A program made the position numbers and the translations under genes. A model generated the notes under the pieces. It was not told the DNA's origin. It saw only the letters and a program-made list of their open reading frames with translations, and did no database searches. DNA of 44,592 bases from Escherichia phage PSK8. Positions 39,074-39,556 of this stretch are shown here, piece by piece (the stretch's first letter is position 1; each line of letters begins with the position of its first letter). The stretch lies in the sequence record PP541515.1. One strand, given 5' to 3'.

Positions 39074-39099
39074 ATTTACTGGACACTATAGAAGAGAAG
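39074..39099 (+). promoter_or_regulatory. SP6-like phage promoter (ATTTACTGGACACTATAGAAGAGAAG)
   Basis: Best consensus match in the window. Confidence 0.75.
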
Positions 39100-39146
39100 A
39101 ATTTTAATCGGCGATAATGCCACAACTAACAAAAGGAGAATTTAAT

Positions 39147-39515
39147 ATGTTCAAGATTGAAACTATCGTAAACCGTGTTGTTAAAGGTGCTGCTCTGGTA
39201 TCCGTTGAGTCTTTCATTATCGTCGATGAAGCTGATCAGCTGGTAGCTGGTACTAAGGCTTACGATACCCGTGAAGAAGCTCAGGCTAAGATCGACAGCA
39301 TGGGTAACTTCGCTGCTGGTCTGGAGTTTGCTCGTGCTTGCTTCCCTGAGCAGGCTGACAAAGCCCAGATTGGTAAGGCTAATATCGTAGCTGAATATCT
39401 GGATTGGATTGCTGCTGGTAAACCAGTGAAAGAAGCTAAGGCTGAAGAAGCTGAGGCTCCGACAGTAGAAGAAACCAAAGCAGAAGAAGCACTGTCTGCT
39501 GAAGAAGAATTTTAA
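39147..39515 (+). CDS. Small acidic protein (122 aa), unknown function; C-terminus SAEEEF
   Basis: Strong AAAGGAGAA RBS; codons dominated by GCT/GGT/CGT/CTG/GAA; own promoter and terminator. Confidence 0.65.
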   Translation: MFKIETIVNRVVKGAALVSVESFIIVDEADQLVAGTKAYDTREEAQAKIDSMGNFAAGLEFARACFPEQADKAQIGKANIVAEYLDWIAAGKPVKEAKAEEAEAPTVEETKAEEALSAEEEF

Positions 39516-39525
39516 TTGATGCCCT

Positions 39526-39556
39526 GTCTGCCTTAGTGTAGGCAGGGTCTTTTGCG
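39526..39556 (+). terminator. Hairpin terminator after the 122-aa gene
   Basis: CTGCCT / AGGCAG stem then GGTCTTTTG. Confidence 0.55.

What the first reader, a model, noticed from the sequence alone, without database searches (positions are those of the whole stretch)
39074..39556. Self-contained promoter-gene-terminator unit encoding a 122-aa acidic protein with host-like codon usage
The best-matching phage promoter in the window (39074..39099), a strong RBS, a gene using codons typical of highly expressed enterobacterial genes (GCT, GGT, CGT, CTG, GAA), and a hairpin terminator form a monocistronic high-expression unit comparable to the capsid gene. The product is strongly acidic and ends in SAEEEF. 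It could be a replisome accessory or SSB-like protein or a DNA-mimic anti-defence protein.
Basis: partly seen in the sequence, partly recalled or inferred. Interest (0 to 1): 0.5.

Follow-up and report, generated by a model that had tools for sequence, protein, structure and literature searches.

The report
Highly expressed orphan phage protein, replisome-type tail
This is gene 18 of a K1E/K1-5/SP6-type phage: a small protein of unknown function that the phage appears to make in capsid-like amounts, and whose conserved acidic tail ending in phenylalanine matches the tails by which the phage's helicase and likely DNA-binding protein are expected to dock onto the replication machinery.

Summary
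The window is a K1E/K1-5-like Vectrevirus genome, and the ORF (39147..39515, 122 aa) is K1E/K1-5 gene 18 (SP6 gene 20), annotated only as hypothetical. Its promoter is the closest of ten copies to the window consensus. Its E. coli codon adaptation is the highest in the genome (0.665 vs mean 0.32, capsid 0.43; 0 of 20,000 re-encodings reach it). Its terminator hairpin is a sister of the one after the capsid gene. The promoter-gene-hairpin unit recurs in most of the ten related phages examined across several lineages.

The protein has a near-neutral 95-residue domain with no significant fold match, not an OB fold. It is followed by a variable disordered acidic tether and a conserved acidic/aromatic C-terminal tip. 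The primase-helicase and neighbouring gp16 carry the same kind of tip. gp16 models as an OB-fold ssDNA-binder-like protein and co-occurs with gp18 (215 vs 212 phage records). In T7 the same sequence rule picks out exactly gp2.5 and gp4.

Best reading (about 0.4): an abundant replisome/SSB-associated accessory or regulator that docks through its tail. It is not the SSB and not a folded DNA mimic. Function remains untested.

The parts
39043..39058 (+). 16-bp perfect palindrome GTCTCACATGTGAGAC between the gp17 stop codon and the promoter; upstream boundary element of unknown role
   Evidence: Six perfect copies in the window against 0.17 expected. Three copies lie 1-15 nt upstream of phage promoters. 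Kept in K1E/K1-5 with one central change and in SP6 through a compensatory change.
39073..39097 (+). Phage (SP6/K1E-type) RNA polymerase promoter TATTTACTGGACACTATAGAAGAGA; inferred transcription start at G39091
   Evidence: Best match of ten copies to the window consensus, 1 mismatch in 25. SP6 and K1E/K1-5 have their own promoter at the same place. A promoter is annotated upstream of the homologue in Vibrio phage AS51.
39091..39146 (+). 56-nt 5' leader with Shine-Dalgarno AAGGAG at 39133..39138
   Evidence: Read from the sequence. Nearly invariant in K1E, K1-5 and SP6. SD pairing energy ranks 19 of 41.
39147..39515 (+). Gene 18 (K1E/K1-5 numbering; SP6 gene 20): 122-aa protein, stop codon included
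   Evidence: ORF. 94% DNA identity to K1E/K1-5 gene 18, annotated as hypothetical. phrog_4429, unknown function. CAI 0.665, rank 1.
39147..39431 (+). Residues 1-95: conserved folded domain, beta-hairpin (3-26) plus three helices (42-89), with motif GLEFAKA...GKANVVAxYLxW
39432..39494 (+). Residues 96-116: variable-length, low-complexity acidic Ala/Glu/Pro/Val tether, predicted disordered
   Evidence: pLDDT 50-63. Indels and free sequence variation among homologues. Tail net charge -3 to -13.
39495..39512 (+). Residues 117-122, SAEEEF: conserved acidic tip with C-terminal aromatic residue, the proposed docking peptide
   Evidence: EEEF is invariant in 120 of 120 close homologues. An acidic tip with Phe at or next to the C-terminus is kept in 18 of 22 members of the diverse alignment. 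In every related phage genome examined the gp18 homologue has Phe or Tyr within the last three residues.
39521..39554 (+). Terminator-like hairpin (11-bp stem, 39521..39548) followed by CTTTTG; probably partial termination and/or a 3' stabiliser
   Evidence: Sister copy after the capsid gene with one compensatory stem change. Identical in SP6. A GC-rich hairpin at the same position in nine of ten related phages examined (not POP72), with a T-rich tract after it in eight; stem sequences unrelated to the window's in seven. Annotated as a rho-independent terminator in Proteus phage PM93.
4104..4137 (+). Sister terminator after the major capsid gene (GCCCTATCTAC-CTTGC-GTAGGTAGGGT + TCTTTTTG), listed for comparison
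   Evidence: The only other 11-pair hairpin found in the whole-window scan.
38007..38813 (+). gp16, 268 aa: proposed functional partner; OB-fold ssDNA-binding-like protein with an acidic tail ending ...EMDEDAEY
32195..32239 (+). C-terminal tail of the primase-helicase (...DTIEETTFDDEQEF, plus stop), same tail class as gp18
   Evidence: Identified as primase-helicase by phrog_239.

Best explanation
Gene 18 encodes an abundant, non-structural middle (DNA-metabolism class) protein of SP6/K1E-type phages. It has a dedicated near-consensus phage promoter, extreme translational codon optimisation and a capsid-type terminator hairpin. Together these should yield a short, very abundant, mostly monocistronic mRNA, with some read-through feeding the exonuclease operon downstream.

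The protein is a small, near-neutral globular domain carrying a flexible acidic tether that ends in an invariant acidic/aromatic tip (EEEF-COOH). The proposed mechanism is that the tip plugs into the same basic docking site or sites that receive the equivalent tails of the phage primase-helicase and of the OB-fold protein gp16. By analogy with T7 these sites would be a basic patch on the phage DNA polymerase and/or the ssDNA-binding cleft of the SSB. gp18 would therefore act at the replication/recombination machinery as an abundant adaptor or competitive regulator working with gp16.

Shown here: the unit's anatomy, the codon bias, conservation of the unit, the domain + tether + tip architecture, the tail class shared by three proteins, and the co-occurrence with gp16. 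Inferred: high protein abundance, tail-mediated docking, the identity of the receptor, and any effect on replication.
For: - Unit anatomy and conservation.
- Codon bias. In T7 the same index ranks gp2.5, the capsid protein, Ocr, gp7.3 and the scaffold protein top; four of the five (not gp7.3) are known abundant proteins.
- Architecture.
- Tail rule (acidic last 8 residues, no Lys/Arg, aromatic at position -1 or -2): picks exactly gp2.5 and gp4 in T7. In the window it picks the primase-helicase, gp16, gp18 and one 71-aa protein, against 0.28 expected.
- All three tails share an acidic tip with Phe or Tyr at or within three residues of the C-terminus in eight phages of at least four lineages. 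Polymerase and exonuclease controls do not.
- In the Uliginvirus lineage the tips of gp16 and gp18 change together, to aromatic plus 1-2 extra residues.
- gp16 is OB-fold and SSB-like. gp16 and gp18 are syntenic between the polymerase and exonuclease genes and co-occur.
- T7 precedent: the acidic tail anchors on the polymerase front basic patch, a DTDF peptide is seen in PDB 6P7E, and the tail competes with ssDNA for the OB domain (PMC12339929, PMC10359462).
Against: - There is no experimental datum on expression, localisation, partners or phenotype. No paper in the library discusses the gene.
- The T7 front basic patch KWKRR aligns to HWGRIR in this polymerase, so the receptor is not demonstrably conserved.
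- The folded domain gives no functional clue.
- Capsid-like abundance exceeds what a 1:1 polymerase cofactor would need, which fits a stoichiometric binder of something abundant (ssDNA-bound SSB, or a host target) better than a simple adaptor.
- Acidic tails ending in Phe also fit host SSB-partner pockets, so the target could be host rather than phage.
Confidence: 0.4

Rival explanations
1. Host-directed decoy or inhibitor. The abundant protein uses its acidic, Phe-ended tail and/or its domain to bind an abundant or critical host target. One version: it mimics the host SSB C-terminal tip (DDDIPF) and sequesters SSB-interacting repair and replication proteins. Another: it blocks a nucleoid protein, RNA polymerase or a defence sensor that watches phage SSB or ssDNA.
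For: - Very high inferred abundance suits stoichiometric titration.
- The tail chemistry (acidic run plus terminal Phe) is the same as in bacterial SSB tips (own knowledge).
- The slot between the polymerase and exonuclease genes in T7 holds host-directed proteins gp5.5 (H-NS) and gp5.9 (RecBCD).
- The family is confined to virulent podophages, with no cellular homologues.
Against: - No homology to gp5.5, gp5.9 or any other T7 protein and no PADLOC or anti-defence family hit.
- The tip style tracks the phage's own gp16 and helicase tips across lineages whose hosts range from Vibrio to Ralstonia. That is easier to explain by a phage-encoded receptor than by diverse host targets.
- Near-strict co-occurrence and synteny with gp16.
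Confidence: 0.25
2. Nucleic-acid architectural protein. gp18 itself coats or organises phage DNA or ssDNA, by analogy with the small, very abundant phi29 proteins p5 and p6, with the acidic tail acting as an autoinhibitory or partner-recruiting element.
For: - Abundance comparable to what a coating protein needs.
- In T7 the top-CAI gene is the SSB, which also has its own promoter and such a tail.
- No sequence-recognisable SSB is present in the window.
Against: - The domain is not an OB fold and is net negative to neutral (-5 to +1) across the family, with few conserved basic or aromatic residues.
- gp16 already provides an OB-fold, SSB-like protein with a tail.
Confidence: 0.1
3. Classical folded DNA-mimic anti-restriction or anti-defence protein of the Ocr/ArdA/gp5.9 type.
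For: Small, overall acidic (pI 4.4) and highly expressed.
Against: - The negative charge is in a disordered tail, not on the folded surface.
- No fold or sequence similarity to known mimics.
- It is a middle gene driven by a phage promoter, too late for anti-restriction.
- The genome has a separate early Ocr-like gene at 25639..26013.
Confidence: 0.05
4. Virion or assembly protein (decoration, internal or scaffold-like) needed in capsid-like amounts.
For: Shares the capsid gene's terminator type and has high inferred expression.
Against: - It lies in the DNA-metabolism gene block between the polymerase and the exonuclease, far from the structural module, in all lineages.
- No similarity to any structural protein family or fold.
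Confidence: 0.05

Closest known systems
T7 gp2.5 (SSB) and gp4 (helicase-primase) acidic C-terminal tails that dock on T7 DNA polymerase
   Same: Disordered acidic C-terminal segment ending in an aromatic residue. Encoded among DNA-metabolism genes. Like gene 2.5, it has its own phage promoter and the top codon adaptation in its genome. One sequence rule retrieves gp2.5 and gp4 in T7, and the helicase, gp16 and gp18 here.
   Different: The gp18 domain is neither an OB fold nor a helicase and has no detectable homology to any T7 protein. The tip is E-F/Y rather than D-F. Binding to a polymerase is untested, and the T7 basic patch is only partly basic in this polymerase.
Bacterial SSB C-terminal tip (DDDIPF) as an interaction hub
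   Same: The layout of folded domain, intrinsically disordered linker and short acidic tip with terminal Phe. The linker varies in length and sequence while the tip is conserved.
   Different: No OB domain, no Pro-Phe, no sequence relationship. gp18 would be a free-standing tip carrier rather than an ssDNA-bound hub.
gp16 of the same phages (phrog_862), an OB-fold protein resembling PrgE, LEF-3 and RPA-type ssDNA binders
   Same: Same tail class, adjacent gene, same phyletic distribution, and high codon adaptation.
   Different: Unrelated folds. gp16 is 268 aa with an OB core; gp18 is 122 aa with a hairpin plus three helices.
DUF1508 / UPF0339 (YegP-like) beta-beta-alpha repeat
   Different: Not statistically supported: Pfam DUF1508 matches 1 of 22 members at E = 0.16, and hhalign probability is 0.16%. 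That family has no known function either.
T7 T-phi and the SP6-group capsid-gene terminator (hairpin plus U-run terminators for phage RNA polymerase)
   Same: The hairpin after gene 18 is a sequence variant of the hairpin after the capsid gene in the same genome.
   Different: The U-run is short (CUUUUG). Downstream genes depend on read-through, so it probably attenuates rather than stops transcription.

Membership tests
SP6/K1E-type phage RNA polymerase promoter | Match to the roughly 23-nt conserved promoter (…ATTTAC(T/C)GGACACTATAGAAGAG), on the coding strand and in an intergenic position | tested here: met
   1 mismatch in 25 to the window consensus, the best of ten copies. 0 matches expected by chance.
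SP6/K1E-type phage RNA polymerase promoter | Transcription initiates there in infected cells | not testable with these tools
   Needs 5'-end mapping such as cappable-seq or primer extension.
Hairpin-plus-U-run (T-phi-like) terminator | Stable GC-rich hairpin followed by a U-run just after a stop codon | tested here: met
   11-bp stem, -18.4 kcal/mol, then CUUUUG. Sister copy after the capsid gene. Position conserved in nine of ten related phages examined, with unrelated stems in seven.
Hairpin-plus-U-run (T-phi-like) terminator | Actually terminates phage RNA polymerase, and with what efficiency | not testable with these tools
   Genes 19-22 have no promoter before 42182, so termination is inferred to be partial.
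T7-type replisome docking tails (gp2.5 / gp4 class) | Disordered, strongly acidic C-terminal segment | tested here: met
   pLDDT 50-63 for residues 100-122. Tail net charge -9 here and -3 to -13 in the family.
T7-type replisome docking tails (gp2.5 / gp4 class) | Conserved aromatic residue at or next to the C-terminus | tested here: met
   EEEF in 120 of 120 close homologues. Phe at or next to the C-terminus in 18 of 22 members of the diverse alignment. Phe or Tyr within the last three residues of the gp18 homologue in every related phage genome examined. T7 positive control.
T7-type replisome docking tails (gp2.5 / gp4 class) | The tail binds a basic patch on the phage DNA polymerase | not testable with these tools
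   No complex-prediction or binding assay is available.
T7-type replisome docking tails (gp2.5 / gp4 class) | Receptor basic patch present on the cognate polymerase | tested here: inconclusive
   T7 K587-W-K-R-R591 aligns to H-W-G-R-I-R at 35% local identity.
OB-fold single-stranded DNA-binding proteins (gp2.5 / Enc34 / bacterial SSB) | OB-fold DNA-binding core | tested here: not met
   The model is a beta-hairpin plus three helices. No OB-fold protein appears among significant matches.
OB-fold single-stranded DNA-binding proteins (gp2.5 / Enc34 / bacterial SSB) | Sequence or profile homology to gp2.5 or SSB | tested here: not met
OB-fold single-stranded DNA-binding proteins (gp2.5 / Enc34 / bacterial SSB) | Binds ssDNA | not testable with these tools
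   The domain's net charge of -5 to +1 argues against it but does not exclude it.
DNA-mimic proteins (Ocr, ArdA, gp5.9) | Folded surface displaying a dense array of carboxylates that imitates DNA phosphates | tested here: not met
   The folded domain is near neutral and the charge is in the disordered tail. No fold or sequence similarity to known mimics. A separate Ocr-like gene is present.
DUF1508 / UPF0339 (YegP-like) | Significant match to the Pfam PF07411 model or to solved UPF0339 structures | tested here: not met
   [not shown]
phrog_4429 (K1E gp18 / SP6 gp20 family) | Full-length profile match | tested here: met
   E = 3.3e-55 over residues 1-122; the family has no assigned function. 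24 clusters at 50% identity among 1.84 billion representatives.

The most novel reading that the evidence does not exclude
gp18 is a free-standing tail carrier: a protein whose main job is to present, at very high copy number, the same docking peptide used by the phage helicase and SSB. It would buffer or time access to the shared receptor on the polymerase or SSB. Alternatively it would imitate the host SSB tip and hijack or blind the host SSB interactome and SSB-sensing defences. Either would be a previously undescribed way of regulating a replisome, or disarming a host, by peptide competition.
Probability: 0.15. Interest if true: 0.75.

Novelty: new variant of a known kind. Interest (0 to 1): 0.45.

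Why it matters
SP6, K1E and K1-5 are long-standing model and therapy-candidate phages, yet the gene they appear to express most strongly has no known function. The neighbouring gene that looks like their SSB is also unannotated.

If gp18 docks on the replication machinery through the same tail as the helicase and SSB, the T7 'acidic tail' principle would extend to a third, non-SSB component. That would open a tractable question: how three proteins share one docking site, and why one of them is made in vast excess.

If the target is a host protein instead, gp18 would be a new host-takeover or anti-defence factor.

Practically, the promoter, leader, codon-optimised gene and terminator form a natural high-expression cassette for SP6/K1E-type polymerase systems.

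Tried and rejected
- Sequence families: Pfam, NCBIfam, PADLOC and PDB sequence searches on gp18 gave nothing. PHROGs gave only an unknown-function family.
- Distant homologues: the exhaustive search found only 24 clusters and no fusions or informative contexts. The search for related loci with the family alignment failed for lack of a conserved stretch. The profile re-search listed mainly close relatives.
- T7 analogues: homology to T7 gp5.5, gp5.9, gp2.5 or any other small T7 protein was rejected (hhalign below 2%).
- DUF1508/YegP link: examined and not supported.
- Polymerase docking patch: conservation inconclusive.
- Rfam: no family anywhere in the window.
- Literature: seven searches and several papers gave no functional statement on this gene. 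Two broad searches were uninformative because the terms were too general. The SP6 genome paper (PubMed 15028677) is not held.
- Model coordinates are not exposed, so conserved residues could not be mapped onto the surface.
- The 132-aa ORF starting at 39117 was rejected as the true start.

Full report
**Identity of the window and the gene.** The 1-kb region around the finding is about 94% identical to Vectrevirus genomes (K1E, K1-5 and relatives; Autographiviridae, Molineuxvirinae). The window is a whole genome, circularly permuted relative to the K1E record. The ORF at 39147..39515 corresponds to K1E/K1-5 gene 18, annotated only as 'hypothetical protein' or by its number. In SP6 it is gene 20. 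It belongs to phrog_4429, which has no assigned function, and has no Pfam, NCBIfam, PADLOC or PDB-sequence match. The only paper in the library that lists the gene calls it 'Unknown'.

**Checking the observation: promoter, leader and terminator.** The core GACACTATAG occurs ten times, always on the + strand. The copy at 39073..39097 is closest to the window's own consensus, with 1 mismatch in 25; the capsid promoter has 2. By analogy with the SP6 promoter, transcription would start at G39091, giving a 56-nt leader with AAGGAG eight bases before the ATG. An in-frame ATG at 39117 gives a 132-aa ORF, but homologues begin at Met-Phe and the upstream ATG is out of frame in SP6, so 39147 is the start. 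The hairpin at 39521..39548 has an 11-bp stem (about -18 kcal/mol) followed by CTTTTG.

**Checking the observation: codon bias and RBS.** The mean is 0.316 (sd 0.093) and the capsid gene is 0.431. It also has the lowest effective number of codons (33.4), and 21 of 24 Ala codons are GCT. Re-encoding the same protein with genome-wide synonymous frequencies gives 0.376 ± 0.037 (z = 7.8), and none of 20,000 trials reached the observed value, even using the capsid gene's own preferences. In T7 the same index puts gp2.5, the capsid protein, Ocr, gp7.3 and the scaffold protein on top. Four of these five (not gp7.3) are known abundant proteins, so CAI rank is a reasonable abundance proxy in this phage group. 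The ribosome-binding site is good but not exceptional, rank 19 of 41.

**The unit is conserved and mirrors the capsid gene.** A whole-window scan finds only two 11-pair terminator hairpins, and they are variants of one element. One follows the capsid gene (4104..4130) and one follows gene 18. They differ by a compensatory A-T to G-C change in the stem.

I examined the gp18 homologues of ten related phages: SP6, Era103, Proteus PM93, Pectobacterium POP72, a Klebsiella phage, Vibrio AS51, Pseudomonas uligo and Nerthus, Aeromonas Aer_P220 and Ralstonia Reminis.
- A phage-promoter-like ...TATAGA... element lies roughly 55-60 nt upstream of the start in all ten.
- A GC-rich hairpin lies just downstream in nine; POP72 shows none within 75 nt. 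A T-rich tract follows the hairpin in eight of those nine (not the Klebsiella phage).
- The stem sequences are unrelated to the window's in seven of the nine.
- Depositors independently annotated a promoter in AS51 and a rho-independent terminator in PM93.
- CAI is rank 1 in SP6 and in Era103.

One caveat: genes 19-22 have no phage promoter before 42182, so termination must be partial. The hairpin may act chiefly as an attenuator and 3' stabiliser.

**Context: a shared tail class.** Three replication-region proteins of the window end in an acidic run plus a terminal aromatic residue:
- primase-helicase: ...TTFDDEQEF
- gp16: ...EMDEDAEY
- gp18...SAEEEF

A simple rule (at least three Asp/Glu and no Lys/Arg in the last eight residues, aromatic at position -1 or -2) retrieves exactly gp2.5 and gp4 in T7, which serves as a positive control. 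In the window it retrieves these three plus one 71-aa protein, against 0.28 expected. In eight phages from at least four lineages, all three proteins carry an acidic tip with Phe or Tyr at or within three residues of the C-terminus. The polymerase and exonuclease C-termini do not. In the Uliginvirus lineage the gp16-like and gp18-like tips both switch to 'aromatic plus one or two extra residues', and the uligo primase does too. That is what a shared receptor would predict.

**Interpretation.** In T7, the acidic tails of gp2.5 and gp4 anchor on basic patches of the DNA polymerase, and the gp2.5 tail also competes with ssDNA for its own OB domain (PMC12339929 and PMC10359462; the essential role of the terminal Phe is taken from the titles of the Ghosh 2009 and Marintcheva 2009 papers cited there). 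On that precedent, the best-supported reading is that gp18 is an abundant accessory or regulator of the replication/recombination machinery. It would dock through its tip on the same site or sites as the helicase and gp16 tails, and it would work with gp16.

I rate this at about 0.4, because nothing about binding or phenotype is known, the T7 docking patch is only partly basic in this polymerase, and the very high inferred abundance would equally suit titration of a host target. The rivals are:
- a host-directed decoy or inhibitor (about 0.25);
- a nucleic-acid coating protein (about 0.1);
- a classical folded DNA mimic (about 0.05), disfavoured by the charge distribution, by middle-gene timing and by a separate early Ocr-like gene;
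- a virion or assembly protein (about 0.05).

**Novelty and verdict.** The gene is present and unannotated in more than 200 sequenced phages, so its existence is not new. What is new here is:
- the quantified, conserved capsid-grade expression unit;
- the domain + tether + tip architecture;
- the tail class shared with the helicase and gp16;
- the identification of gp16 as the probable OB-fold SSB;
- the near-obligate pairing of gp16 and gp18.

This is best filed as a new variant of a known kind: tail-mediated replisome proteins of T7-like phages. It is of moderate interest and readily testable.

Noticed in passing
window 10993..11008, 29857..29872, 30050..30065, 32418..32433, 33816..33831, 39043..39058 (plus a 2-mismatch copy at 30850..30865): A 16-bp perfect palindrome, GTCTCACATGTGAGAC, occurs six times against 0.17 expected, always intergenic. 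Three copies sit inside 13-bp-stem RNA hairpins followed by U-rich tracts, 10-17 nt after stop codons (z -4 to -5). The other three are bare cores 1-15 nt upstream of phage promoters. K1E and K1-5 carry a one-base variant at the gp17-gp18 site, and SP6 keeps the hairpin through a compensatory change. Not in Rfam; function unknown.
   Followed up: partly
[not shown]
   Followed up: yes
window 32186..32239: The phage promoter at 32186..32207 lies inside the 3' end of the primase-helicase gene. Its core GACACTATAGAAGAG encodes the residues D-T-I-E-E of the helicase's acidic tail. The SP6 helicase tail also contains DTIEE, so promoter and tail share the same bases.
   Followed up: no
window 43787..44002: A 71-aa protein of unknown function (phrog_5860) also ends in an acidic/aromatic tail (...TDEEETDDFI). 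Its counterparts in SP6 (...DDQEADYQY) and Era103 (...DEDEQDY) do too. It may be a fourth member of the tail class.
   Followed up: no
window 37027..39560: Three phage promoters (37027, 37796, 39073) lie within 2.5 kb. Four of the five highest-CAI genes in the genome sit here: gp15, gp16, gp17 and gp18. This looks like a hot spot of middle-gene expression. gp15 carries a dubious 'polysaccharide chain length determinant' label.
   Followed up: no
window 29792..29815: A strong 10-pair hairpin followed by TTCTTT lies immediately after the RNA polymerase gene (ends 29784) and before the first middle promoter (29874). It is probably the early terminator for host RNA polymerase.
   Followed up: no
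window 30066..30089 and 15464..15488: There are two degenerate phage-promoter-like sequences: TATTTACCGGACAGTATAGATAAG just after a palindrome copy, and a 7-mismatch copy in the gap between the ORFs ending at 15390 and starting at 15673. It is unclear whether either is active.
   Followed up: no
window 24568..24596 and 25469..25497: Two identical sigma-70-type promoter matches (TTGACA, 17 nt, TACATT) lie upstream of the early region that includes the Ocr-like gene at 25639..26013. They are likely host-polymerase early promoters.
   Followed up: no
window 39580..39852: Gene 19 (90 aa) is labelled 'DNA repair protein' in RefSeq and PHROGs (phrog_10319). It has no Pfam or NCBIfam support, and its 3' end overlaps the exonuclease gene's start by about 90 nt. 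The label looks unverified.
   Followed up: no
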